DNA of 64,000 nt, taken from Candidatus Methylumidiphilus alinenensis (GTDB lineage: Bacteria; Pseudomonadota; Gammaproteobacteria; Methylococcales; Methylococcaceae). The notes under the pieces are model-generated. The model had not been told where the DNA came from and did no database searches. It was given only the letters and a program-made list of their open reading frames with translations. Both the position numbers and the translations under genes were made by a program. The number at the start of each line of letters is the position of its first letter. Position 1 is the stretch's first letter. The DNA is taken from positions 15,679 through 79,678 of the forward strand of contig QJPH01000143.1 of NCBI GenBank assembly GCA_003242955.1, given 5' to 3'. Shown here piece by piece: positions 1 to 62,083 of the stretch.

Positions 1-1824
1 GATGATGCCGCTGTCCAGTTCCTCTTCTTCCAGAAATTTTTCGGCTAGGGCGATAGACCGACTCGGTTTTGAAAACCGAGTCGGTCTTGCTGGCTCGTCC
101 GGGAACAAGTCGGCAATTTGTTCTGCCGCCCAATGTCGCGTGACTTGAACCTTTCGGCCCCCTTCGACATTTTGCATCGCCAAAGCCAAGGTGCGCAACA
201 CTTCCAAACTTCGCTCGGGTCCGGCGCGTCCGGGGCGCAGTTCGCGGGAACGGGACAGCCACAACAGGATGGACTCGTACAATTCGGCGCGTTGTTCCGG
301 CAAACGCTTTTCGTTCCAATGCACCACCGCCAAGGCGGTCAGCATCACCGTGTTGCGGGCAAGGCGGCGGATGTTGGGGCGGCCATTCAAGGCTTGCAAC
401 AATTCCAGACGATGGGCTTCCGCCACTTTGGTGTCGGTTGGATGCAGGGCACGGCTCCAACGGTCCAGGAAAGTTTCCACCGCATGATCGTTCAAAGCTT
501 CGATAGTGCTAGGCTGGAAATTCGGCAACACCGAGCGGTCTTGATAGCCGGAAGGCCGGGAGGTGACGAGGATGGGGCATTGCTTCCACGTCGCGGCGAC
601 GGCTTCCAGCAATTCGGTGGCGAATTCGCGGGTTTTGCGATCTGAGGCTTCGTCCAGGCCGTCGAACAACAGCAGGCAATCACCCTGATTCAATCTTTCC
701 TTGAACCAGGTTGCATCCAAGCCCCATTCCCGGCTGGCCGATTGGCTGTCAAGAAAATGCACCAGCCATTGCGGGTTTTTGGTGGTGGTGGGTGGTTGCA
801 TTGATTGTTGACCCGCATCACCAACCCCTTTCCAAGAACTACCGCAGACCGACTCGGTTTTGGAAACCGAGTCGGTCTTCATATGGGCGACATGCTCCAA
901 CCATTCCGCAATCGACACAAAAACCGGCAGTAGTGGGCGGGTAAGCCCGAGTAATTTCTCTGCGGCTTTGTCTGTGACACCCAACCGGTCCCCTGCCAAG
1001 GTGTGGGCAATCCAGCGTAGAAAGGTCGTCTTGCCTGCGCCGGGGTCGCCCACGACCACGCGGCGCGGATGGCCTAGGGTGTTTTTCAGCTTGCCACCGC
1101 CCGTGATGTCCAGTTCGATATACAGGTCTGCAATCGGGAAGCGGTGCGCCTTGCCGCTGCCGACATGCAGGCCACGTATGTCGATGTGGGCGCATTCTTC
1201 ATACAATTGGGCTAGATAGCGCTCGGGGTTGGCTTGGGCTTTAGCTTGCGACTTGGCAATGGGTGCAAAGCTCGGGTTATTGACTAGCCAGTCTTTCAAC
1301 GCGGACTCGACTTTGCGTTCCAGTTCCTCGGATGTGGCAAACATGGCACGGATGCGGTTTTGCGTCAACCAAGTTTTAAATTCTTGCAATGCGGCAGTGT
1401 TGCGTTGCACTTCCAGTGCAAGGGCGGGAATTAGGTCATATTTCCCTTGCAAAGCGGCTTCGGTTAAACGGTACGCCTCTTTTTTATCGTCCGGCCATGG
1501 CGCAGTTTCATCAACCACAAACACCAGCAATGCTTTTCGATTGTCCTGCCGAACCGTCCGCTCGCATTCCAGCCGACAAATGCTCTTGTGGTCGGGTTGG
1601 CCTTCCGGCACCCAGCCATAGCGATGGGCGACGATGGCTACGGTCAAATGCGTATCGTCCACCCTCGCCATGCATTCGTCCAATGGCTTGTTATCCTTCG
1701 CTGCCCAATCCTTATTCATGATCGGCAAAAAACCAGACCGTATAGCCGCCGCCTTGGCCTTATCGCGGAACTCTTTCAGGTCCGTAACCGTCGAGGAAAT
1801 AAAGACTTTAGGGGCACCATTCAT
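1..1824 (-). CDS. STAND NTPase: N-terminal DUF4062 (TIR-like) domain fused to a NACHT P-loop module; the 3' end runs off the left edge of the window
   Basis: Absent from the supplied ORF track because its stop lies outside the window. My translation of the minus strand from ATG 1824-1822 stays open to position 1. The N-terminus MNGAPKVFISSTVTDLKEFRDKAK is DUF4062-type. Walker A is VVVGDPGAGKTTFLRWI (GKTT at 1024-1035) and Walker B is CLLLFDGLDE (~655-690). The helical region NTVMLTALAVVHWNEKRLPEQRAELYE is NACHT-like. The + strand ORFs listed between 118 and 1893 are shadow ORFs. Confidence 0.8.
   Translation of the reverse strand, partial: MNGAPKVFISSTVTDLKEFRDKAKAAAIRSGFLPIMNKDWAAKDNKPLDECMARVDDTHLTVAIVAHRYGWVPEGQPDHKSICRLECERTVRQDNRKALLVFVVDETAPWPDDKKEAYRLTEAALQGKYDLIPALALEVQRNTAALQEFKTWLTQNRIRAMFATSEELERKVESALKDWLVNNPSFAPIAKSQAKAQANPERYLAQLYEECAHIDIRGLHVGSGKAHRFPIADLYIELDITGGGKLKNTLGHPRRVVVGDPGAGKTTFLRWIAHTLAGDRLGVTDKAAEKLLGLTRPLLPVFVSIAEWLEHVAHMKTDSVSKTESVCGSSWKGVGDAGQQSMQPPTTTKNPQWLVHFLDSQSASREWGLDATWFKERLNQGDCLLLFDGLDEASDRKTREFATELLEAVAATWKQCPILVTSRPSGYQDRSVLPNFQPSTIEALNDHAVETFLDRWSRALHPTDTKVAEAHRLELLQALNGRPNIRRLARNTVMLTALAVVHWNEKRLPEQRAELYESILLWLSRSRELRPGRAGPERSLEVLRTLALAMQNVEGGRKVQVTRHWAAEQIADLFPDEPARPTRFSKPSRSIALAEKFLEEEELDSGII
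55..87. repeat. 33-nt palindromic element, family P (AGACCGACTCGGTTTT-G-AAAACCGAGTCGGTCT), copy 1, inside the NACHT CDS
   Basis: Perfect 16-bp arms. The same element occurs at 846-878, 53155-53187 and 58662-58695, with a half copy at 54941-54952. 33 nt equals 11 codons, and it is read through on the minus strand as ARPTRFSKPSRS. Confidence 0.9.
846..878. repeat. 33-nt palindromic element, family P, copy 2, inside the NACHT CDS between Walker A and Walker B
   Basis: Sequence is AGACCGACTCGGTTT-TGG-AAACCGAGTCGGTCT. It is read through in a different phase from copy 1, as KTDSVSKTESV, with no stop codon. Confidence 0.9.
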
Positions 1825-1875
1825 AGAGCGGTTCCAACAAAAAATACCGATTCAAAAAAGGAAGCGGTCAACGGG

Positions 1876-2022
1876 TCACTGCCATTAAGTTAAGGAAAAA
1901 ACCGTCGTTCCGGCAGGGAGTGCCGGAACCTATAGGCCATGGAGGGCGGGCTAGATTCACCTCCCTGTGTTCTGGATACCGGCAATCCATGCCGGTATGA
2001 CGGCTTAACTTAATGGCAGTGA
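1876..2022. mobile_element. MITE family A, 147-bp copy
   Basis: 19-bp terminal inverted repeats TCACTGCCATTAAGTTAAG / CTTAACTTAATGGCAGTGA enclose GC-rich hairpin modules (CGTCGTTCCGGCAGGGAGTGCCGGAAC...). It is flanked by a GTCAACGG direct duplication (1867-1874 and 2023-2030). A second full copy lies at 17054-17200. Confidence 0.8.
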
Positions 2023-2078
2023 GTCAACGGATGCGATTAAATTGATGCATACGACAATGCTATACATGAAATTACGTC

Positions 2079-2157
2079 GGGAGTGCAAGGCTTGCCTTGC
2101 TTGCACACCCCATCGCAAGGCAAGCCTTGCACTCCCGCATCACTTTTAATCGCACCC
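2079..2157. repeat. REP-like hairpin element, family F
   Basis: GGGAGTGCAAGGCTTGCCTTGC ... GCAAGGCAAGCCTTGCACTCCC followed by the tail GCATCACTTTTAATCGCACCC. A near-identical copy lies at 53684-53762 and a partial copy at 37498-37520. Confidence 0.8.
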
Positions 2158-16952: not shown

Positions 16953-17219
16953 GATCGTTCCCACGCTCCAGCGTGGGAATGCAGCCTTTACCGCTCCAGC
17001 GGTTCGATACCTCCGACGCTGGAGCGTCGCCGGAGGCATTCCCACGCAGAGCGTCAATGCCATTAAGTTAAGCCGTCATTCCGGCATGGACCGCCGGAAT
17101 CCAGATTGCAGGGATGCCAACAATCTATGCCATCCATGGAGCCTAGGTTCCGGCGAACCCTGCCGGAACGACAAGTTTTTTCTTAACTTAATGGCAGTGA
17201 CGCAGAGCGTGGGAACGAT
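16953..17219. mobile_element. Composite: family B inverted-repeat element (about 111 bp) interrupted by a family A MITE
   Basis: The B termini are GATCGTTCCCACGCTC / GAGCGTGGGAACGAT. The right terminus is split by the insertion at 17054-17200. Related B sequence occurs at 35633-35690, 36085-36115, 37046-37085 and 37355-37440. Confidence 0.75.
17054..17200. mobile_element. MITE family A, 147-bp copy nested in element B with a perfect 9-bp target-site duplication
   Basis: TIRs are TCAATGCCATTAAGTTAAG / CTTAACTTAATGGCAGTGA. The direct repeat CGCAGAGCG lies at 17045-17053 and again at 17201-17209. Confidence 0.9.
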
Positions 17220-17256
17220 ACCATTGTAGCCGGGACGGGGCTTCTTTCGTCAACCC

Positions 17257-35609: not shown

Positions 35610-35842
35610 TATTTAACTGGCTGCTAAATTTTGATCGTTCCCACGCTCCGGCGGGTTTGAAGGCACTGGAGCGCTCATCGTTATACACAAGTGTTGGAGG
35701 CCCGTCATTTCGGCAGGGATGCCGAAATCCAGCGTCCAAGGATGGCAAACTCGGGGCCACGACAGATATTCCCGCAACCGCTTATATCTAACTACGGGAT
35801 GGCATGTTACCTGAATCAGGCATTTGCACAACCGACTTGTTA

Positions 35843-37318: not shown

Positions 37319-37684
37319 GATTCCGGCATCCCAGCCGGAATGACGTGCCTTCAACACTTGTGTATAACGGCGAGCGCTCCGGCGTGGAAACCGAAACTGC
37401 CCCGCACGGCGGGTTGAAGGCACTGGAGTGCCTAGGGCCACATTCCCATACTAGAGCGTCATTGCCATTAAGTTAAGGGTTTCAATATGCCAACGCCGGG
37501 AGTGCAAGGCTTGCCTTGCCTGGATTTACAGAAAACGATCACCCCCTATAGTCAATTTCGACTAATTGGTACAATGGTCGCAACATTCTGAACTTTCTTA
37601 TAATTTGTGGCTTGATGCCAAAGATAGGTGTAATCTGTTGGAAAAAAGGTCAATGAATTGGGCGGAAAAAGCGACTAACCCAAT

Positions 37685-39007: not shown

Positions 39008-39060
39008 GTTTTCCTGATTAACAAGATTATTTAGCCAATTTGTAACATCCAGCCGTATTC

Positions 39061-39173
39061 GTCATTCCGGCAGGGATTGCCGGAATCCAGTCGCCATGGA
39101 GGGCAATCTAGGTTCACCTCCCTGTGTTCTGGATACCGGCGAACCCTCGCTTCGCTCTCCCTGCCGGTATGAC
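39061..39173. repeat. Hairpin-module repeat (family A interior without the outer TIRs)
   Basis: GTCATTCCGGCAGGGATTGCCGGAATCCAG...CCATGGAGGGC...CACCTCCCTGTGTTCTGGATACCGGC...CCCTGCCGGTATGAC closely matches 1901-2003. It lies about 200 bp beyond the 3' end of the AT-rich operon. Confidence 0.75.
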
Positions 39174-47500: not shown

Positions 47501-48859
47501 TTAGGTGTTGTTGATATTCCGAAGCTCATGGTAATCAATCGCTTGTTTGATGGAGTTTAACCAAGGCAATATTCTTTTCTTAAAATCGGAGTCTGTATTC
47601 AATTTTGCCAGGGATTTATCCAGTTCAGAATTGAGTTCTTCTTGTGTGCGCTGGTGTATCGCCCACATCAGTTGCGTGTAAATCTCTTGACCTGCTTTCA
47701 GTAGCTCATAATTATCCATTAGGGAAGCAGTCAAATACAGTGTCCGCATTTGTAAATCAATGCCCTCATAGATTCGCTCTGGATTCCAAAACCAGATCGA
47801 AGCCCAAAAGTATTGGGTTGAATAAAATGCCCGGTCCAACAAATCGCGTAGTTTATTTAATCCAGAGTGTTGTTCATCACCCTCGATATTGAAATTAATG
47901 TTTGAATTAGCATCCCATATCAGATCGGTCAGCTTCCAAAGGTTTTCATGGATAGGATTGTCTTTGGATTTCCACAAGGGGTAGTAATCTCCCCTTTTAT
48001 AGTTATCCGGCTGAGTTGCCCAAGAGCAGGGTGGAAAATACTCAAAGATTTGTCCAACTTCTTTGGGTTTTTCAATCTTGCTTAGACCTTTGATGTTGAG
48101 CAGATCGGACACCAAGCATAATTCTACAGAATCTGATTTCGATAATTTACACAGCATGTCCCTCAGAAAAGTCTCCTGATAATATTTAACATGATGACCA
48201 AAGGTTTCCCCGGATATGGCAATGATAGTGTAGCAGTCTTGCTGTTGCAGTTGAATTTCAGCCTCCATTTGTCGAACAAACTCCCGACCCGTCAGATGAT
48301 GCCCATTTTTAATACGATTGCTCCATAGTTCACTCCTCATGAACACTGCAATGTCGTTGACATGGTAAATTTCGTGTTGAGGAATCCTTATCCCATTTAT
48401 TTCCATCACGCAATCATCAATAATCGTCCATTGAAAGCCCATCTCTTGATATAAAGGTAAAAGTTTGTCGTGATAGCACATTTCAGGAGAAAAAATACCC
48501 GATGTTGTAGTAACTCCGAAATGTTCGGACTTTAAATCCTTATCTAATGCAATTTGTCGTTTGACTTCTTGGTCTGGTAACAATGGAAAGATGGGATGGT
48601 AAGCCCCGGTATGGATCATTTCTATTTTGCCGAACTTAACCGCCTGTTTAAGCCCTTCTATGACTTTGTCTTTACGGAATTCGATTAATAAGCTGGCTAA
48701 AGAATTGGCAAGGGAAACGGTGAATTTGGCATTGGGTTTGGAATTGAATAGTTCCACTAGGGGTTGGTAACACTCACGGGTCACCTCGTCGATGACTTTG
48801 TCGTTTTGTGATGAAGGTTGAAATAAATCCAGTAAAAACGCCACATACATTTTAGCCAT
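47501..48859 (-). CDS. GH57-like protein, paralogue 2 (probably non-catalytic), 452 aa
   Basis: GH57-type regions are present: GKIEMIHTGAYHPIFPLL, GIFSPEMCY and YSTQYFWASIW. However, region I is DLFQP (His replaced by Asp) and region IV is IIAISGETFGHH (the acid/base Asp replaced by Ser, codon checked in the DNA). TAATG gives a 1-nt overlap with paralogue 1. Confidence 0.65.
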   Translation of the reverse strand: MAKMYVAFLLDLFQPSSQNDKVIDEVTRECYQPLVELFNSKPNAKFTVSLANSLASLLIEFRKDKVIEGLKQAVKFGKIEMIHTGAYHPIFPLLPDQEVKRQIALDKDLKSEHFGVTTTSGIFSPEMCYHDKLLPLYQEMGFQWTIIDDCVMEINGIRIPQHEIYHVNDIAVFMRSELWSNRIKNGHHLTGREFVRQMEAEIQLQQQDCYTIIAISGETFGHHVKYYQETFLRDMLCKLSKSDSVELCLVSDLLNIKGLSKIEKPKEVGQIFEYFPPCSWATQPDNYKRGDYYPLWKSKDNPIHENLWKLTDLIWDANSNINFNIEGDEQHSGLNKLRDLLDRAFYSTQYFWASIWFWNPERIYEGIDLQMRTLYLTASLMDNYELLKAGQEIYTQLMWAIHQRTQEELNSELDKSLAKLNTDSDFKKRILPWLNSIKQAIDYHELRNINNT

Positions 48860-50049
48860 TAGCGGTTCTCCAAAAGATGTCTTTTATTCTCAATTGCGGT
48901 CACCAATTCCCTAAATAATTTCTCGCCTTTGCCAATATCATCATCATTACCGGTCATCACCCAAGCCTTTTGCAGAATGCGCATCAAATTGAATGCCCCC
49001 TTGTAAATTTCCTGTGAATTCTCAGGTTTGTCGAATTTCCAATAGTTGGCCCACCAGAACTGACAAGAGTAAAGGGCTTTGTCCATATCCCCATTCAAGT
49101 TTTTATCGTTCAAGCGTCGCACATTGTCCAGTACAAGGTCACAAAATTGCCATTGCAAGGTATGGATGGGATTTTTATGGCTTTTCCACCAAGAAAAATA
49201 ATCCCGGTTGTCAATGTCGGCACGATCTGTAGACCAGGAGCCGGGCGGGATAAACTGGGTTACCTGCTTGAAATGATGAAAGATTTCTGCCAAGTGGGCG
49301 GTTCGTATCTCATCCTTATGCTGGTCAAAAGCAGCAAACATTTCACTAAGAAACACTTCGCTATATTTATGTTGATGATGACCAAAAGTTTCCCCATCCA
49401 GCGCGATGATCAGATAGCCGTCTTGGTCCCCCATCCATTGTTTCATGGAAGCCAGCAACTCTTCGACAAATTCCTGCCCATGGACCCAGTTGTTATCGTT
49501 ATTGGCAAAGCGGTTGGACCAATGGTTGCTACGCAACAACACCCCTAATTCATCTTGGCAGTAAACGGTGTCAAACGGAACTTCGATGCCATAATAGTCC
49601 AGATTGCCATCGTCGGCGATAGTCCACTGATAACCGAGGGATTTTAGCTGGGAAGCCAGATTGCCGGTGAAGGCCAATTCAGGAGAAAAGACTCCTTGTG
49701 GATTGAATTCAGCTGTCAATAAACGCTGATTGCCTTCATGGTTTAGCCGTATCTGCCGTTCCACTTCTTCATAAGGTATCAATGGGAAGATAGGGTGGTA
49801 AGCCCCGGTTTCGGTCAACTCCAAAATTCCTTCGTCATGCGCGGCGCGGATATTCTCAAGTATCTGCGGAAATGGATCGTGGAGTAATTCGACAAGACTG
49901 TAGTTGATGTTCAAGGTGAATTTCAAGCCGCTGGCTTCCCTGATTTTACGCGTCAGCGGTTCGTAGCTCTCCCGTACAATTTTAGCCAGCATATCAAATT
50001 CTTGTACAGGTGGCTGGTAGATGTGAAACAGAAAGTTGACAAATTTCAT
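48859..50049 (-). CDS. GH57-like glycoside hydrolase, paralogue 1 (catalytic motifs intact), 396 aa
   Basis: The start is set at ATG 50049 (MKFVNFLFHIYQPP). Regions are HIYQP, GILELTETGAYHPIFPLI, GVFSPELAF (nucleophile Glu), IIALDGETFGHH (acid/base Asp) and YSCQFWWANYW. The 55 upstream codons of the tracked ORF are MITE read-through. Confidence 0.7.
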   Translation of the reverse strand: MKFVNFLFHIYQPPVQEFDMLAKIVRESYEPLTRKIREASGLKFTLNINYSLVELLHDPFPQILENIRAAHDEGILELTETGAYHPIFPLIPYEEVERQIRLNHEGNQRLLTAEFNPQGVFSPELAFTGNLASQLKSLGYQWTIADDGNLDYYGIEVPFDTVYCQDELGVLLRSNHWSNRFANNDNNWVHGQEFVEELLASMKQWMGDQDGYLIIALDGETFGHHQHKYSEVFLSEMFAAFDQHKDEIRTAHLAEIFHHFKQVTQFIPPGSWSTDRADIDNRDYFSWWKSHKNPIHTLQWQFCDLVLDNVRRLNDKNLNGDMDKALYSCQFWWANYWKFDKPENSQEIYKGAFNLMRILQKAWVMTGNDDDIGKGEKLFRELVTAIENKRHLLENR

Positions 50050-50056
50050 CAATAAT

Positions 50057-50061
50057 CTCCT
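50057..50061 (-). promoter_or_regulatory. Shine-Dalgarno (AGGAG) for the first gene of the AT-rich operon
   Basis: The minus strand reads AAAGGAGATTATTGATG, with AGGAG 7 nt upstream of ATG 50049. Confidence 0.55.
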
Positions 50062-50117
50062 TTGACTGCAATAGCTAGGTTGCCTTGGGAACAGGCTTGA
50101 TCCAGTGATTTTTACGC

Positions 50118-50196
50118 CGTCATTACAAAAGGCTTGTCGTCGCTTGAGGTTTGCCATCCCTGGACGCTGGATTCCTGCATCCATGCCGGAATGACG
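50118..50196. repeat. Degenerate family C hairpin-module element just upstream of the operon
   Basis: CGTCATTAC...CTGGATTCCTGCATCCATGCCGGAATGACG. It is related to the elements at 50363-50503 and 58498-58636. Confidence 0.6.
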
Positions 50197-50362
50197 GGCC
50201 CGGCGTAATTTCAAGCATTGCCGAGTTTGTGTGCATCACGTTTAATCGTACCCACCTTTCGCAAAAAATCCACCGGACGTACAATAGGAATATTACCATA
50301 ACTGCCAAGTGTCAACAGATCATGGTCGCCGGACACAGCAATTCTCATTTTGGCTAGAACGC

Positions 50363-50503
50363 CGTCATTCCGGCAGGGATTGCCGGAATCCAGATGCCAT
50401 GGACGGCAACTCGACGCTCGCAAGTGTTTGATTCAGGGTGTGTGCCAGCCCGCAGTTTCACATCCCTGTGGACTGGATTCCGGCAATCCCTGCCGGAATG
50501 ACG
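50363..50503. mobile_element. MITE family C (141 bp) with ~30-bp terminal inverted repeats
   Basis: CGTCATTCCGGCAGGGATTGCCGGAATCCAG ... CTGGATTCCGGCAATCCCTGCCGGAATGACG. A homologous copy lies at 58498-58636. Confidence 0.8.
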
Positions 50504-50725
50504 GACCATAGTTTAACTCTAATTTTTTATTTGGTTCAACGTTAAGGTGGTTTCCAATAAAGTTTACCCTCCTTTGGGGAAATCCCCCCTAACCCCCCTT
50601 TTGCAAAGGGGGGAGTGGTATGCTCATTTCTGGAATACACCTAATCGTGATTTTGCCTGAATGACCAACCGCACTAATTCAGGGTAAAATAAGCATTTAA
50701 GTTTACTTGACGCTACTGGAAACTC

Positions 50726-53106
50726 TTGAACAATCAAAATTATTTTGCCACGGCCCCATTGGGTTTCGAACTTTTGCTCGCCGACGAATTGCGTGGTTTG
50801 GGTGCCGATGAGGTTAAAGACGTCCGGGCGGGGGTTTCTTTCTCCGCCGACATCGAAACCGCCTACCGGGTTGTTTGTGGTCGCGGTTAGCCAATCGCGT
50901 GTTGTTAAAGCTGGCAAGCTTTCCCGCCGCCACTCCCGAGGAACTATACACCGAAGTCAGTGAAATCGACTGGGCGGTTTTGATGCTGCCTGAAGCAACG
51001 TTGGCCGTGGATTTCACCAGTTCCCGATCCCGCATCACCCACACTCAATTTGGCGCGCAAAAGGTCAAGGATGCCATCGTCGATCAGTTCCGCGAACTGT
51101 GCGGTATCCGCCCTTCGGTGCGTTTGGACCGTCCAGACATTCGGGTGAATGTTTATTTGGACAAGGACATTGCCAGCGTTGCCCTGGATATTTCCGGCGA
51201 GAGCCTGCACAAGCGCGGTTATCGGTTGGATGGCGGAATTGCCCCGCTGAAGGAAAACCTAGCCGCCGCCGTTCTGCTGCGAGCGGGTTGGCCTGATATT
51301 GCTAAAACGGGAGGCGAATTGGTCGATCCCATGTGTGGTTCTGGAACCCTGCTGATCGAAGCCGCTTGGATGTCTGCTGATATTGCGCCAGGGCTGATGC
51401 GGGATTATTTTGGCTTTCAGGGCTGGAAGCATCATCGCGCCGACTTGTGGGAATCTCTGTTAGAGGAAGCCAAAACCCGCCGCGAAGCCGGTTTGCGGAA
51501 GCTGCCGACGATCACCGGCTATGATTTTGACCGCCATGCCGTCCATGCCGCATTGGACAATATCGAGCGGGCCGGATTGCACGGATTGATCCATGTCGAA
51601 AAGCAAGAGGTCATAAACGCACGGCCTCGCAAATACGGCTATACTTCTGAATTAAGCCGTCATTCCGGCATGGATCGCCGGAATCCAGATTGCAGGGATG
51701 CCACCAATCCATGCCGGAACGACGATGGAACCCTTAATTCAACAGCAGAGACCTTAGACTCCTTCCCTTTTATAAAGGAAAAAAAGGGGGATTTTCAACC
51801 TACCGGACTGGTCGTGGTCAACCCCCCCTATGGCGAAAGGCTAGGCGAGGCGGATGAACTGGCCGGTTTGTATAGCGAACTGGGTGGTGTCCTAAGAACC
51901 CATTTCCAAGCTTGGAAAGCCAGCGTATTGACCGGCAACCCGGAACTGGCGTTCAAACTGGGGATTCGTGCGAGGAAATTCTACAAACTCTACAACGGGG
52001 CGATAGAATGCAAATTGTTCAATTTCGATATCGAACCAGAGCGATTTTTTACGCCCCACGAGGATGAAACCGGGCTTTCTGAGGAAGCCCGCAAATCCAA
52101 GCAACTGATGCGCCAAGCCCAAAGTCTGGCAAACAAGGGGGAAACCGGTTCAGGGGCGGAAATGTTTGCCAATCGTTTGCGTAAAAATGCAAAAAACTTG
52201 GGGCGGTGGGCTAGGCAAAACAACGTGTCTTGTTACCGGCTCTATGATGCCGACCTTCCCGAATATGCGGTGGCGGTGGATTTGTACCAAGGCGAGAAAA
52301 CTTGGCTGCATGTGCAGGAATACCAGGCACCGGCCATCATTGACCCCGCCAAGGCCGAGCACCGTTTGGTGGAAGCCTTGTCAGTCATGCCACAGGTGTT
52401 GGAGATTCCACAAGGACAACTATTCCTGAAAATCCGCCAGCGCCAGAGGGGCTCCGACCAATATGAGAAGCAGGCCGACGTAGGCCGATTCCATCAGGTG
52501 GACGAAGGCGTTTGCCGTTTTTGGGTCAACTTTGAAGACTATCTGGACACCGGCCTGTTTCTGGACCACCGCCCGACCCGGCTGATGATCCAGCGATTGG
52601 CCAAGGACAAGCATTTCCTCAACCTCTTTGCCTATACCGGAACGGCCACCGTCCATGCGGCTTTGGGCGGTGCCCGTTCGACGACCAGTGTGGACATGTC
52701 GCATACCTATATGGAATGGGCGCGGCGGAACTTGGAACTGAACGGCATCAAAGGTTATCATCACGAACTGATCCAGGCCGATTGCCTGGCTTGGCTGGAT
52801 GCCCAGGTAGATAAGGGTGGCAACCGGTTTGATTTGATATTCCTAGACCCGCCCACCTTCTCCAATTCCAAGCGCATGGCAGGTGCTTTTGACGCACAGC
52901 GGGATCATGTGGAAATCTTACGCAAAACCGCCAGATTGCTATCGCCCGGCGGCCTGTTAATCTTTTCCACCAATTTCCGTAAATTCAAACTCGATTATGA
53001 TGCTTTGCAAGATTTTGTGGTCGAGGACATCAGCGGCAAGACCATCCCCAAGGATTTTGAACGCAACCCGAGAATCCATTATTGTTGGACGATCAGAAAT
53101 AAATAG
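50726..53106 (+). CDS. rlmL: Bifunctional 23S rRNA (G2445-N2)/(G2069-N7) methyltransferase RlmKL, with an apparent 1-nt frameshift near 50873-50877 and an in-frame MITE-derived insert
   Basis: The tracked ORF 50875-53106 begins LWSRLANRVLL and carries NPPYGERL, YRLYDADLPEY and DPPTFSNSKR. The expected N-terminus (TTG 50726: MNNQNYFATAPLGFELLLADELRGLGADEVKDVRAGVSFSADIETAYRVV) lies in another frame and stops at TAG 50888-50890. Confidence 0.85.
51649..51740. mobile_element. Internally deleted family A MITE derivative (92 nt) inside the rlmKL reading frame
   Basis: GAATTAAGCCGTCATTCCGGCATGGATCGCCGGAATCCAGATTGCAGGGATGCCACCAATCCATGCCGGAACGAC...CTTAATTC. Its first ~65 nt are near-identical to 17066-17130. 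It is translated as ELSRHSGMDRRNPDCRDATNPCRNDDGTLNS. Confidence 0.85.
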
Positions 53107-53154
53107 CGTTGAGTATGGCATCGGTAGCATATAAGATAGTTTGCCATTTAATAA

Positions 53155-53187
53155 AGACCGACTCGGTTTTAAAATCCGAGTCGGTCT
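53155..53187. repeat. Family P palindrome, intergenic copy 3 (33 nt)
   Basis: AGACCGACTCGG-TTTTAAAAT-CCGAGTCGGTCT, 49 nt after the rlmKL stop. It may act as a transcript-end hairpin, but no T-tract follows. Confidence 0.85.
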
Positions 53188-53214
53188 TGCCAAGCATCAA
53201 TGATTAGGTAAGCC

Positions 53215-53496
53215 GTGCAAAGACGAGTGCATATTGTTGTTTCTGGTAGGGTGCAAGGCGTTGGTTACCGCGCATCGGCCTTCGACAAAGCAAAGTCATT
53301 AGGCATAACTGGCTGGGTGCGGAATTTACCGGAAGGCAATGTCGAAATCCTTGCCGAGGGTGATAAGCCTAGTATGGAGGCTTTCATTGACTGGTGCGCA
53401 AGTGGGCCGCGCTGGGCTAGGGTGGATGATGTGCAAGTGAGTGATGAGATGCCTAAAGGGGATTCTAGTAGTTACAGCGTTTTTATTATCAAATAA
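53215..53496 (+). CDS. acyP: Acylphosphatase
   Basis: GTG start. The signature is VSGRVQGVGYR plus GWVRNLPEGNVEI. Length is 93 aa. Confidence 0.85.
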   Translation: MQRRVHIVVSGRVQGVGYRASAFDKAKSLGITGWVRNLPEGNVEILAEGDKPSMEAFIDWCASGPRWARVDDVQVSDEMPKGDSSSYSVFIIK

Positions 53497-53499
53497 TTC

Positions 53500-53623
53500 G
53501 GCCTTGGTCATCGTTCAGCCCACCCAATGTGGAGTGCGGCGACTCGTCGCCGCTTTCCGAACCATGCGGCGACGAGTCGCCGCACTCCACAAACTCACCC
53601 ATCGGGCTGAACGATGACCATGG
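53500..53623. mobile_element. MITE family E, copy 2
   Basis: GGCCTTGGTCATCGTTCAGCC ... GGCTGAACGATGACCATGG. The interior is the inverted version of the 19577-19695 copy. Confidence 0.8.
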
Positions 53624-53683
53624 ACGAAAAGCACTCTTCTTTGCGCCTTTGCGAGCTTTGCGTGAGACTTCTTTTTCCAGCTT

Positions 53684-53762
53684 GGAGTGCAAGCCTTGCC
53701 TTGCCTGCACACGCCATCGCAAGGCAAGCCTTGCACTCCCGCATCACTTTTAATCGCACCCC
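53684..53762. repeat. REP-like hairpin element, family F, copy 2
   Basis: GGAGTGCAAGCCTTGCCTTGC ... GCAAGGCAAGCCTTGCACTCCCGCATCACTTTTAATCGCACCCC. Compare with 2079-2157. Confidence 0.8.
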
Positions 53763-58661: not shown

Positions 58662-58695
58662 AGACCGACTCGGTTTTTAAAAACCGAGCCGGTCT
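58662..58695. repeat. Family P palindrome, intergenic copy 4 (34 nt); possible bidirectional terminator between convergent ispG and sapC-like genes
   Basis: AGACCGACTCGGTTTTT/AAAAACCGAGCCGGTCT with one arm mismatch, followed by TTGTCTT. Confidence 0.8.
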
Positions 58696-58700
58696 TTGTC

Positions 58701-60923: not shown

Positions 60924-61433
60924 ATGCATCCCCGCGCCGCAGAATTGATCCACTTGCTTGACTTGGAACCGCACCCTGAAGGCGGTTATTATCGCCGCAT
61001 CCATCGTTCTGAAAGCCGGGTGCTGCGCGAGGCGGACGGCATCGGACGAAGAGCGTTGACTTCGATTTATTATCTGTTGACGGAAGGCTCCCTTAGCCGC
61101 TGGCACCGGGTTTGCGCCGATGAGGCATGGCACCATTATGAAGGAGCGCCGCTGGAGTTGTTGGTTTTCGAGGCGGATGGCTCGCTCACTTTATCGCACA
61201 GGCTGGGACCGTTACTGGAGGGAGACACGCCTGCTTATGTCGTCCCCGCTGGTTGGTGGCAAGCTGCTCGGCCCCTTGGAGCCTATTCGCTAGTCGGCTG
61301 CACAGTAGGGCCCGGTTTCGAGTTTGCAGACTTCACCCTCCTAGCCGACTTGCCCGAGGAGGAAAGACCGGCATCCCCAAGCTTTGCCGATTTTGAGTTA
61401 TTTCTACCGTGTCCAAACTGTAGTTTATATTAA
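60924..61433 (+). CDS. Cupin (DUF985) domain protein
   Basis: LEPHPEGGYYRRIHRS and WHRV...AWHHYEG motifs. Length is 169 aa. Confidence 0.75.
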   Translation: MHPRAAELIHLLDLEPHPEGGYYRRIHRSESRVLREADGIGRRALTSIYYLLTEGSLSRWHRVCADEAWHHYEGAPLELLVFEADGSLTLSHRLGPLLEGDTPAYVVPAGWWQAARPLGAYSLVGCTVGPGFEFADFTLLADLPEEERPASPSFADFELFLPCPNCSLY

Positions 61434-62083
61434 TAGGCCTTCGCCCTAAAATTCGCCGGAACGTCTAACTCGAATACTTCGTCGTGAATGCGGGCGACAT
61501 AAAAACCGGCTTTTAAAATGCGCTCCCTCAATTCGTCAGAACAATCAACTGCCGCTAAAATGCCATAAACCGCTTTGTCTTTGTGTTCGGGGAAAAATCG
61601 GCGAAACCTTTCCAGAATAGTCCGTAATTGGTCTATGGATTCTTCCTTTACATGGCTTTTCACTTCGACCACATAGGCTTCGTTGACCTCACTATTGGCA
61701 TAGGCCAATACGTCGATCTCCATACTTTCTCCTTGCTTTTTGACGCGGACGCTAGGACTAATCACTTCCATCCCAAATCGCGCAGACAAAATCTTGGTCA
61801 TTGACGGCAAGGCCAAGCCTTCGGTGAAACTACCGAACTTTTTCCCCAATCCGCCAATTTGTTTGCCCAGTTCTTTTATTTCACTGGCCGTCTCCTTCAT
61901 TTGACGATCAGTCTCCTTCATTTGACGATCAGTCTCCTTCATTTGACGATCAGTTTCCTTCATTTGACGATCAGTTTCCTGCATTTGCTTGGCTGTTTCT
62001 TGTTGTGCGACAGCCAAACTTGCAACCAAAGTTTTCAGTTCTTCATCGGTCATGGATTTACTCTTGTTTAAAAAATTAGTCAC
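61430..62083 (-). CDS. Coiled-coil heptad-repeat protein with a C-terminal PD-(D/E)XK-like nuclease fold
   Basis: The N-terminal region is QETAKQMQETDRQMKETDRQMKETDRQMKETDRQMKETASEIKE. The C-terminal region MEIDVLAYAN...AYVVEVKSHV fits a D...ExK motif. Confidence 0.5.
   Translation of the reverse strand: MTNFLNKSKSMTDEELKTLVASLAVAQQETAKQMQETDRQMKETDRQMKETDRQMKETDRQMKETASEIKELGKQIGGLGKKFGSFTEGLALPSMTKILSARFGMEVISPSVRVKKQGESMEIDVLAYANSEVNEAYVVEVKSHVKEESIDQLRTILERFRRFFPEHKDKAVYGILAAVDCSDELRERILKAGFYVARIHDEVFELDVPANFRAKAY
61890..61973. repeat. Four tandem 21-bp repeats (GTYTCCTTCATTTGACGATCA), plus a degenerate fifth unit to 61994, inside the CDS
   Basis: Three units are identical and one has a single substitution, all read directly. 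They encode the heptad KETDRQM on the minus strand. Confidence 0.9.

What the first reader, a model, noticed from the sequence alone, without database searches (positions are those of the whole stretch)
51649..51740. MITE-derived insert translated inside the RlmL methyltransferase domain
A shortened family A MITE sits in frame in rlmKL. Its first ~65 nt are nearly identical to the copy at 17066-17130. It contributes ELSRHSGMDRRNPDCRDATNPCRNDDGTLNS. Between the conserved strand ...IHVEKQEV and the catalytic NPPYGERL motif, this protein has about 45 more residues than I recall for E. coli RlmL at the corresponding position. An essential-pathway rRNA methyltransferase tolerating a mobile-element-encoded loop next to its active-site motif parallels the in-frame palindromes in the NACHT gene. 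It suggests these repeat families are selected to be stop-free in some frames.
Basis: partly seen in the sequence, partly recalled or inferred. Interest (0 to 1): 0.65.

Follow-up and report, generated by a model that had tools for sequence, protein, structure and literature searches.

The report
Mobile repeat translated inside rRNA methyltransferase
A small mobile DNA repeat has landed in frame inside a ribosomal-RNA methyltransferase gene of a lake methane-oxidising bacterium and adds a floppy surface loop; this kind of event is already known from Rickettsia and a few other bacteria.

Summary
Window 51639-51750 is a 112-nt copy of a 145-nt MITE, in frame in rlmKL between the IHVEKQEV strand and NPPYGERL. 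Its core is two inverted CGTC-tagged REP hairpins, and intergenic copies have 18-nt TIRs and 11-bp target duplications. The whole extra block is 165 nt (55 codons, 51631-51795) and is compound: the MITE plus a remnant of an older GC palindrome ("PLQKGGRGDF" element). About 75 other species have no insert. Sister alleles carry only the palindrome, a 145-nt form of the same MITE, or different MITE-like elements with related TIRs in the same loop. The window copy is a 33-nt in-frame deletion of the long form. The intact 793-aa ORF is indexed in 58 blocks of the assembly collection (19 contigs read), dN/dS is about 0.1, and AlphaFold predicts a disordered loop. The frameshift at 50871-50873 is one missing T, absent from six near-identical assemblies. 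The same MITE frame lies inside at least eight unrelated multidomain proteins, as with Rickettsia RPEs. "Selected to be stop-free" is not supported: one of six frames is open, no more than shuffles give. "Essential" is overstated.

The parts
50726..53106 (+). rlmKL coding region (TTG start; 793 codons once the missing T is restored). As sequenced it is split into a 53-codon 5' ORF and the 743-codon ORF 50875-53106.
   Evidence: (E. coli RlmL E=1.6e-186). The 743 aa are identical to the C-terminal 742 aa of P0121.
50871..50873 (+). Frameshift site. The run is TT where six near-identical assemblies have TTT (GGGTTTGTTTGTGG, coding V C L W).
   Evidence: It is the only indel against L087 in 18.7 kb at 99.98% identity.
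51631..51795 (+). The whole lineage-specific extra block, 165 nt = 55 codons (KYGYTS...KKGDF), between Arg codon CGC (ARPR) and CAACCT (QPTGLVVVNPPYGERL).
51639..51750 (+). MITE copy, 112 nt TIR to TIR. It is the 145-nt family member minus 33 nt.
   Evidence: long form L085 is 134/145 identical to intergenic copy L093. RNA hairpin -42 kcal/mol, z -4.8.
51639..51656 (+). Left terminal inverted repeat CTATACTTCTGAATTAAG. Its 3' part encodes the E-L-S at the start of the insert peptide.
   Evidence: Compare CAATACTGTTGAATTAGT in L093.
51658..51688 (+). Complete CGTC-tagged REP unit: CGTC + 9-bp stem ATTCCGGCA + 5-nt loop + stem + CCAG tail.
   Evidence: Class definition from PMC3733652.
51706..51713 (+). 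Junction of the 33-nt in-frame deletion (the single remaining TCCATGCC of two direct repeats).
   Evidence: alignment of L085 with the window.
51709..51724 (-). Outer half of the second, inverted REP unit (CGTCGTTCCGGCATGG on the minus strand). The inner half was lost in the deletion.
51733..51750 (+). Right terminal inverted repeat CTTAATTCAACAGCAGAG (encodes L-N-S-T).
51758..51795 (+). Degenerate remnant of 'element B', a GC-rich palindrome (CCTTTGCAAAAGGGGGG..GGGGGGATTT, PLQKGGRGDF in relatives). Here it reads ACTCCTTCCCTTTTATAAAGGAAAAAAAGGGGGATTTT (DSFPFIKEKKGDF).
   Evidence: (L002 has only this element).
51820..51843 (+). Catalytic motif NPPYGERL of the RlmL domain, intact.
17044..17210 (+). 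Intergenic full-length MITE (17055-17199, 145 nt) with an 11-bp target duplication ACGCAGAGCGT on both sides. It sits in the centre of another palindrome.
   Evidence: RNA fold -71 kcal/mol, z -9.8.
1866..2032 (+). Second intergenic 145-nt copy (1877-2021), flanked by GGTCAACGGGT / AGTCAACGGAT (9 of 11 identical).
50566..50613 (-). Intergenic copy of element B, about 110 nt upstream of the rlmKL start.

Best explanation
A non-autonomous transposable element inserted into the rlmKL gene of a freshwater-lake Methylococcaceae lineage. The family's canonical form is 145 nt, with 18-nt terminal inverted repeats, an 11-bp target duplication, and a core of two inverted CGTC-tagged REP hairpins. The insertion lies in the short connection between the IHVEKQEV strand and the strand that carries the catalytic NPPY motif of the RlmL (m2G2445) domain. 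This loop already held a small GC-palindrome insert. Only one of the element's six reading frames is open, because the TIRs carry TGA/TAA in the other forward frames, and that frame is the one in phase with rlmKL. The canonical 145 nt plus an 11-bp duplication would add 156 nt, exactly 52 codons. The gene therefore stayed open, and the element is read through as a roughly 40-55-residue unstructured surface loop that the enzyme tolerates. A later 33-nt deletion between two 8-nt direct repeats shortened it, again in frame, and gave the window allele. Shown: repeat identity, boundaries, absence from other taxa, allele series, ORF integrity across assemblies, purifying selection on the host gene, and the predicted disorder. 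Inferred: that the loop is translated, that the enzyme stays active, and that the insert is a neutral passenger kept by survivorship rather than for a function. The single-T deletion at 50871-50873 is a separate lesion or base-calling error specific to this window.
For: Repeat identity: 95% to 17068-17131. The long allele L085 is collinear over all 145 nt with intergenic copies: 117/145 to window 17055, and 134/145 (core 98/100) to L093, which has a perfect 11-bp TSD. Five of five full-length copies are exactly 145 nt. REP anatomy matches the CGTC class. Lineage specificity: the RAGL-to-NPPYGER distance is 36-38 aa in about 75 species but 50-106 aa in this clade only. Allele series in this loop: L002 +14 aa (palindrome only), L005 +22, window +55, L085 +66, L004 +59 (a different MITE-like element with 11-bp TSD CGCCAWCAACC), L001 +70 (a third element on the other side of the palindrome). 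Function retained: the intact 793-aa ORF P0121 is indexed in 58 blocks of the collection; 19 contigs were read and six were compared at the DNA level. dN/dS is 0.06-0.11 between insert-bearing alleles. All catalytic motifs are intact, and the length change between alleles is 33 nt. Structure: AlphaFold2 gives pLDDT below 50 and no secondary structure for residues 304-357, between strands 290-293 and 361-365; the rest is confident and matches 3v97. Generality: the same frame occurs inside STAND-TIR, nSTAND, three histidine kinases, a CIS tape-measure protein, an Eco57I-type enzyme and a NACHT-FGE-sulfatase protein. Known precedent: RPEs and intragenic REPs (PMC3733652, PMC10969869).
Against: There is no transcript, peptide or rRNA-modification evidence. 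The rlmKL copy has no recognisable 11-bp duplication (left CGCAAATACGG, right ACCTTAGACTC), so arrival by simple transposition is not demonstrated for this copy. Gene conversion of an older element is an alternative. In this window the gene as sequenced is frameshifted. AlphaFold disorder is a prediction, and I could not measure the loop's distance from the SAM or RNA site. RlmKL is dispensable in E. coli (PMC9074899), so tolerance could partly reflect weak selection, although dN/dS of about 0.1 argues against that.
Confidence: 0.85

Rival explanations
1. The gene is a decaying pseudogene in this organism. The MITE insert and the frameshift are both symptoms, and function is supplied elsewhere or is dispensable.
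For: There is a one-base deletion at 50871-50873. RlmKL is non-essential in E. coli (PMC9074899).
Against: The frameshift is the only indel against six assemblies that are 99.95-99.98% identical over 9-18.7 kb, and all six are intact. The intact 793-aa protein is indexed in 58 blocks of the collection. dN/dS is about 0.1 across insert-bearing alleles. There are no other stops, and the 743 aa are identical to P0121. Indels in the insert are multiples of three.
Confidence: 0.07
2. The insert has been co-opted: the loop has a function (for example an extra RNA or partner contact, or a Cys-containing site), or the mRNA hairpin regulates rlmKL expression.
For: The insert is retained in many assemblies. 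The 33-nt deletion kept the frame. The element forms a strong mRNA hairpin (-42 kcal/mol, z -4.8). The loop is occupied by some element in every member of the clade.
Against: Sister alleles carry unrelated sequences in the same loop. Both substitutions between the long and short alleles within the insert are non-synonymous. The loop is predicted disordered. There is no terminator, promoter or Rfam match. The same peptide sits in unrelated proteins, mostly in linkers.
Confidence: 0.06
3. The present element did not transpose into rlmKL. An older MITE at this site was refreshed or replaced by gene conversion or recombination with other copies, which would explain the turnover of cores between alleles.
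For: The copy has no TSD, although its core is 98/100 identical to L093. Its left TIR is the most diverged part, 12/18. MITE-free relatives L005 and L001 have CTATAC|GCA and CAATTC|GCA at the homologous spot, resembling joined MITE termini. rlmKL is a recombination mosaic with a break at the insert: 98.6% versus 94.6% identity to L004.
Against: L004's element has a clean 11-bp TSD, so at least that one transposed in. L001's element lies on the other side of the palindrome. The 'footprint' is only about 9 nt and could be chance.
Confidence: 0.3
4. Assembly artefact: a repeat was wrongly joined into the gene.
For: Assemblies do break at this repeat; P0135 starts inside it at a contig end.
Against: Identical junctions appear in the window and in nine loci read as DNA from different samples and assemblers (L003 and L087-L092 short form, L085 long form). 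The reading frame is continuous.
Confidence: 0.01

Closest known systems
Rickettsia palindromic elements (RPE-1 to RPE-10; Ogata et al. 2000, 2002, as summarised in PMC10969869 and PMC3733652)
   Same: Both are palindromic repeats of about 100-150 bp inserted in frame in many unrelated, apparently functional genes, each contributing a conserved peptide in one frame. RPE-4 and RPE-6 are CGTC-tagged REPs, the class to which this element's core belongs. Insertions are thought to sit at protein surfaces.
   Different: The host here is a free-living methanotroph lineage, not an obligate intracellular bacterium. This element has clear 18-nt TIRs and an 11-bp target duplication around a REP dimer. 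Sequence relatedness to RPEs was not tested. Here several allelic states of one loop coexist among close relatives.
Intragenic CGTC/GTAG REPs (Di Nocera et al. 2013, PMC3733652)
   Same: The unit anatomy is the same: CGTC tag, 9-bp stem starting AT, 5-nt loop, CCA tail, inverted dimers. That paper reports that dimers inside ORFs encode 20-30 aa and that recB genes of two Xanthomonas species carry different REPs at about the same site.
   Different: Here the REP dimer is packaged inside a TIR-bounded 145-nt MITE. Methylococcaceae was not seen in the passages of that paper I read. CGTC REPs there have no known transposase.
Coxiella burnetii QMITE2 (PMC5896051)
   Same: It is similar in size (150-190 bp), has long variable direct repeats (7-11 nt), and shows occasional in-frame insertion in ORFs (enhC and hypothetical proteins).
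   Different: It is mostly found in 3' UTRs. It is an unrelated organism and sequence relatedness was not tested. No case inside a catalytic domain of a housekeeping enzyme is described in the passages read.
E. coli RlmKL / YcbY (3v97, 3v8v; PMC3367195)
   Same: The host protein is an orthologue (E=1.6e-186). Both methyltransferase domains and the THUMP domain are present, and the model matches the crystal structure outside the insert.
   Different: E. coli has 9 residues where this protein has 61.

Membership tests
MITE | Terminal inverted repeats | tested here: met
   18-nt TIRs: CAATGCCATTAAGTTAAG / CTTAACTTAATGGCAGTG in the copy at 17055; CTATACTTCTGAATTAAG / CTTAATTCAACAGCAGAG in rlmKL. 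The whole element folds as one hairpin.
MITE | Target-site duplication flanking the element | tested here: inconclusive
   An 11-bp TSD is present at window 17055 (11/11), window 1877 (9/11), L093 (11/11) and L004's rlmKL element (10/11). No TSD is recognisable at the window/L085 rlmKL copy or at the histidine-kinase copy in L096.
MITE | Small, no transposase gene, multicopy | tested here: met
   The element is 145 nt. There are three TIR-bounded copies plus about seven REP-only sites in 64 kb. A search of a protein library with the open frame gave 351 representative ORFs.
MITE | Autonomous partner IS with the same TIRs | not tested
   No transposase was looked for systematically. None is annotated in the 19 kb around rlmKL.
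CGTC-tagged REP (PMC3733652) | CGTC tetranucleotide at one end, 8-9-bp stem beginning with AT, 4-5-nt loop, CCA-type tail | tested here: met
   CGTC-ATTCCGGCA-GGGAT-TGCCGGAAT-CCAG at 39060, 50363 and elsewhere; the rlmKL unit is at 51658-51688. Criteria are quoted.
CGTC-tagged REP (PMC3733652) | Mostly arranged as inverted dimers | tested here: met
   Inverted pairs lie at 39057-39170, 50360-50506 and within each MITE. Singletons also occur at 35703, 36022, 37316, 50167 and 58607.
RPE-like protein-coding palindromic repeat | In-frame insertion in several unrelated genes that remain open | tested here: met
   rlmKL plus at least eight multidomain proteins with the peptide internal. The DNA was verified for one histidine kinase (L096).
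RPE-like protein-coding palindromic repeat | Sequence homology to Rickettsia RPE families | not tested
   Only the shared CGTC-REP architecture is known from the literature. No RPE sequence was compared.
RlmKL (bifunctional 23S rRNA m2G2445/m7G2069 methyltransferase) | THUMP plus RlmL methyltransferase with an NPPY motif, fused to the RlmK methyltransferase domain; orthology to E. coli YcbY | tested here: met
   phmmer E=1.6e-186 to 3v8v/3v97 over three segments. Pfam PF22020, PF02926, PF01170 and PF10672 on P0001. Foldseek top hit 3v97, E=1.4e-76.
RlmKL (bifunctional 23S rRNA m2G2445/m7G2069 methyltransferase) | Methylation of G2445 and G2069 | not testable with these tools
   This needs an rRNA modification assay.

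The most novel reading that the evidence does not exclude
This 145-nt MITE family may be a free-living-bacterium counterpart of the Rickettsia RPEs that is adapted to survive inside genes. The evidence that does not exclude this: its length is fixed at 145 nt (five of five copies, even between diverged subfamilies), so that 145 + 11-bp duplication = 52 codons exactly. One frame, dictated by the TIRs, is kept open. It recurs in loops and linkers of many proteins. On this reading the RlmL loop before the NPPY strand is a recurrent landing pad, seeded by an earlier palindrome, whose content turns over between close strains by new insertions, in-frame deletions and gene conversion.
Probability: 0.25. 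Interest if true: 0.6.

Novelty: new member of a known kind. Interest (0 to 1): 0.42.

Why it matters
In-frame 'selfish DNA' in proteins was first thought peculiar to Rickettsia. This case gives a documented example in an uncultured freshwater methanotroph lineage, with an unusually complete allele series for one loop: palindrome only, long MITE, short MITE, and two other MITE-like elements. It also shows the same element inside histidine kinases, STAND/NACHT NTPases and other proteins. That makes it a natural experiment on how much foreign, disordered sequence a Rossmann-fold methyltransferase tolerates next to its catalytic strand. It also bears on how mobile repeats create protein length variation. 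In practice, such repeats break assemblies and produce truncated gene calls (P0135), and the window's frameshift should not be read as pseudogenisation without read support.

Tried and rejected
(1) More stop-free frames than chance: rejected. One open frame of six in each full copy, against shuffle means of 0.6-1.3.
(2) Internal terminator, promoter or known RNA family in the insert: none. There were 0 terminator-like sites, and only sub-threshold miRNA-type hairpin hits in Rfam.
(3) Metagenome scan with a degenerate pattern across the frameshift site, meant to collect more alleles and test whether the TT allele recurs: only one locus was returned (L086, an L001-type allele), so it was uninformative.
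(4) Word-indexed protein search with the MITE peptide: it returned only 36 short ORFs and missed the known rlmKL positives, so it could not be used to count intragenic copies. The exhaustive HMM search replaced it.
(5) Other copies of the L004 and L001 elements: none in the roughly 0.7 Mb held, so their repeat status rests on TIR similarity and L004's TSD only.
(6) The apparent 3.1-kb rlmKL match in Nitrosomonas oligotropha L070 is a spurious second HSP, not an insertion.
(7) Finding an 11-bp TSD for the rlmKL copy: none found, including by eye at small shifts of the boundaries.
(8) The structure paper for E. coli YcbY has no description of the 293-301 loop in the passages searched. The loop's distance from the active site and RNA path therefore could not be stated.
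Full report
**1. The observation**

In the frame of the 743-codon ORF 50875-53106 it translates to ELSRHSGMDRRNPDCRDATNPCRNDDGTLNS. The ORF is rlmKL. It matches E. coli RlmL/YcbY (3v8v, 3v97) at E=1.6e-186 in three collinear segments, and close homologues carry the RlmL_1st, THUMP, UPF0020 and Methyltrans_SAM Pfam domains.

The alignment to E. coli jumps from query 247/chain 292 to query 309/chain 302. So 61 residues stand where E. coli has 9.

The repeat is real. 51652-51715 is 95% identical to 17068-17131. The 20-nt seed AGCCGTCATTCCGGCATGGA has 10 matches (up to 3 mismatches) in the window, against 0.01 expected.

**2. What the element is**

The repeated unit is CGTC-ATTCCGGCA-(5-nt loop)-TGCCGGAAT-CCAG. 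This matches point by point the CGTC-tagged REPs defined by Di Nocera et al.: a CGTC tag, an 8-9-bp stem starting with AT, a 4-5-nt loop and a CCA tail, mostly as inverted dimers (PMC3733652). According to that paper the class includes Rickettsia RPE-4 and RPE-6.

In the window these units occur as singletons and as inverted dimers. In two intergenic places, 1877-2021 and 17055-17199, a dimer is packaged inside an element of exactly 145 nt. That element has 18-nt terminal inverted repeats (CAMTGCCATTAAGTTAAG) and 11-bp direct repeats of the target: ACGCAGAGCGT at 11/11, and GGTCAACGGGT/AGTCAACGGAT at 9/11. The whole element folds as one long hairpin, -71 kcal/mol with z=-9.8. This is a MITE with a REP-dimer core.

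The rlmKL copy, measured TIR to TIR, is 51639-51750, or 112 nt.

Allele L085 (protein P0126, 804 aa) carries a 145-nt version at the same place. It aligns without gaps to the intergenic copies. The window copy lacks 33 nt between two TCCATGCC direct repeats. 'Shortened' is therefore right, and the shortening kept the frame.

An intergenic copy on another contig (L093) is 134/145 identical to the L085 copy, with the core at 98/100. It has TIRs of the same subtype (CAATACTGTTGAATTAGT) and a perfect 11-bp duplication GGGGTTGCCGA. The rlmKL element therefore belongs to a subfamily that has transposed elsewhere.

**3. The insert is compound, and the loop is a hot spot**

The organism is an uncultured freshwater-lake Methylococcaceae lineage (record titles; L091 is GCA_903912685.1).

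From RAGL to NPPYGER there are 36-38 residues in about 75 species of Methylococcaceae, Methylomonas, Nitrosomonas and others. Only the window's narrow clade is longer:

- L002: 50 residues.
- L005: 58 residues.
- Window and L003: 91 residues.
- L004: 95 residues.
- L085: 102 residues.
- L001: 106 residues.

The DNA shows that all clade members share a GC-rich palindrome, 'element B': CCTTTGCAAAAGGGGGG-TA-GGGGGGATTT, encoding PLQKGGRGDF. An intergenic copy of it lies 110 nt upstream of rlmKL at 50566-50613 on the minus strand. In the window it is degenerate (51758-51795, DSFPFIKEKKGDF).

On top of element B:

- The window, L003 and L085 have the REP-core MITE upstream of it.
- L004 is closely related (5' half of the gene 98.6% identical). 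It has a 124-nt element with the same kind of TIR (CAATACTGTTGAATTAAG / CTTAATTCAAAAGCATTG), an unrelated core, and a clean 11-bp duplication CGCCA(T/A)CAACC.
- L001 has a 151-nt element with the same TIR type on the other side of element B.

I found no further copies of the L004 and L001 elements in the sequence I hold. Their status as repeats rests on the TIRs and on L004's duplication.

**4. Is the gene alive?**

As sequenced, the window has a frameshift. The run at 50871-50873 is TT where relatives have TTT or TCT.

Six independent assemblies (L087-L092) are 99.95-99.98% identical to the window over 9-18.7 kb. All have TTT, and for L087 this is the only indel in 18.7 kb.

The window's 743 residues are identical to the C-terminal 742 of P0121. 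P0121 is the intact 793-aa protein, indexed in 58 blocks of the assembly collection; 19 contigs carrying it were read.

Nei-Gojobori dN/dS between insert-bearing alleles, insert excluded, is 0.06-0.11. All catalytic motifs are intact. The MITE-bearing gene is therefore under purifying selection. The frameshift is a private lesion or a base-calling error in a T run, and I cannot tell which without reads.

RlmKL is individually dispensable in E. coli (PMC9074899), so 'essential' is too strong.

**5. Where the insert sits in the protein**

An AlphaFold2 model of P0001, built on 73 sequences, has mean pLDDT 82.8. Residues 304-357 fall below 50 with no secondary structure, between strand 290-293 (IHVE) and strand 361-365 (LVVVN, leading into NPPY). 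The remainder matches 3v97.

From general knowledge of class I methyltransferases, this is the connection between the strand before motif IV and the motif IV strand. I could not measure its distance from the SAM or RNA sites.

No terminator, promoter excess or Rfam family lies in the insert. The mRNA could form a -42 kcal/mol hairpin there.

**6. Frames**

Each full copy has exactly one open frame of six. It is the same one each time (…LSRHSGMD…PCRND…LN…), and it is the one in phase in rlmKL. Base-shuffled controls give 0.6-1.3 open frames on average, so there is no excess.

The TIRs themselves put TGA and TAA in the other two forward frames. This is why the peptide always starts (NTV)ELS and ends LNS(T).

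All five full-length copies seen are exactly 145 nt, and 145 + 11 = 156 = 52 codons. The other two elements also give multiples of three if an 11-bp duplication is assumed: 124 + 11 and 151 + 11. For in-gene copies that is expected from survivorship. For the family's canonical length it is a one-in-three coincidence, or a hint of adaptation that I cannot resolve.

**7. The family in other proteins**

I built a profile of the open frame from window copies plus small ORFs (alignment A4). It was searched against 1.84 billion representative proteins and gave 351 hits at E<=0.001.

Most hits are short spurious ORFs on intergenic copies. At least eight are real multidomain proteins with the peptide internal:

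- STAND NTPase-[insert]-TIR (P0181).
- An nSTAND protein (P0232).
- A hybrid histidine kinase with the insert splitting HATPase_c (P0234).
- Two kinases with REC-[insert]-Hpt (P0307, P0311).
- A contractile-injection tape-measure protein (P0258).
- An Eco57I-type enzyme (P0270).
- A NACHT-FGE-sulfatase protein (P0293).

Most carry the TIR-encoded ends NTVE(L/I)S…NLNST. For P0234 I read the DNA: a 145-nt element with both TIRs, in frame, between the N and G1 boxes of the kinase.

The rlmKL case is therefore one instance of an RPE-like habit of this family. In-frame MITE and REP insertions are documented for Rickettsia RPEs, for intragenic REPs in several species (including different REPs at about the same site in recB of two Xanthomonas), and for Coxiella QMITE2 (PMC10969869, PMC3733652, PMC5896051).

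**8. What remains unexplained**

The rlmKL copy has no recognisable 11-bp duplication (left CGCAAATACGG, right ACCTTAGACTC). Yet its core is 98% identical to L093's copy. Its left TIR is its most diverged part, 12/18.

L005 and L001 lack a MITE at this spot. They carry CTATAC|GCA and CAATTC|GCA there, which look like the element's two outermost hexamers joined.

rlmKL is also a recombination mosaic with a break at the insert.

An older element whose interior was deleted in some lineages and refreshed by gene conversion in others would fit these facts. So would chance resemblance. The alleles in hand do not decide between them.

**9. Verdict**

It is wrong on essentiality and unsupported on selection for stop-free frames. 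The insert is a compound of two repeats rather than one.

It is a new member of a known kind. Interest is moderate, because of the allele series at one loop and the breadth of host proteins in a free-living lineage.

Noticed in passing
window 50871-50873: A single T is missing from a TTT run in rlmKL. This splits the gene into a 53-codon and a 743-codon ORF. It is the only indel against a 99.98%-identical 18.7-kb contig from another sample.
   Followed up: yes
window 61851-61987: A 21-nt tandem repeat (5 copies) lies inside ORF 61430-62083 (minus strand, weak DUF3782 hit). Two otherwise near-identical assemblies (L088, L089) are 21 nt shorter here, so this is an in-frame copy-number polymorphism.
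   Followed up: partly
window 17028-17226: The 145-nt MITE at 17055-17199 sits exactly in the centre of another palindromic repeat (TTCCCACGC-AGA-GCGTGGGAA), and the centre was duplicated as the 11-bp TSD. This suggests that elements of this family nest in other palindromes.
   Followed up: partly
window 2074-2157, 37493-37522, 53678-53761: A third repeat family (GGAGTGCAAGGCTTGCCTTGC...GCAAGGCAAGCCTTGCACTCC, itself palindromic) occurs next to MITE copies and just downstream of the acylphosphatase gene that follows rlmKL.
   Followed up: no
window 55-90, 846-881, 53155-53190, 58662-58697: A fourth small palindrome family (AGACCGACTCGGTTTTNAAAACCGAGTCGGTCT) is present, with one copy right after the rlmKL stop. 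It looks like a terminator-type hairpin.
   Followed up: no
alignment A1 columns 581-609 (P0038, P0041, P0042): More distant rlmKL orthologues carry a second in-frame insert after the VD(L/I/V)Y motif, in the RlmL-RlmK linker region. An example is ...SAPHPNPLPEGEGAKNGA..., which looks like yet another GC-rich repeat family.
   Followed up: no
P0135 (contig of 1506 nt): A 478-aa 'RlmKL' in NCBI/UniRef starts at the Met inside the MITE because its contig ends there. Assemblies break at this repeat and produce truncated gene calls.
   Followed up: yes
L093 2554-2698; L093 3525-5228: An intergenic 145-nt copy with a perfect 11-bp TSD lies between a hydrolase gene and a NACHT/FGE-sulfatase gene. 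A different NACHT-FGE-sulfatase protein (P0293) has the MITE peptide in frame at residues 772-803.
   Followed up: partly
window 49127-53553 versus L089; window 50114: One assembly (L089) is only 97.3% identical across the GH57-rlmKL interval, where the others are above 99.9%. It also has a 12-nt indel at 50114. This indicates local recombination or hypervariability around the repeat-rich intergenic region.
   Followed up: no
window 47501-50214: Two adjacent paralogous GH57 genes show 72-78% identical stretches at a spacing of about 1.2 kb (D8, D12, D14), so this is a tandem gene duplication. The 451-aa ORF call for the second gene runs upstream through a REP unit at 50167-50199, which is probably not translated.
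   Followed up: no
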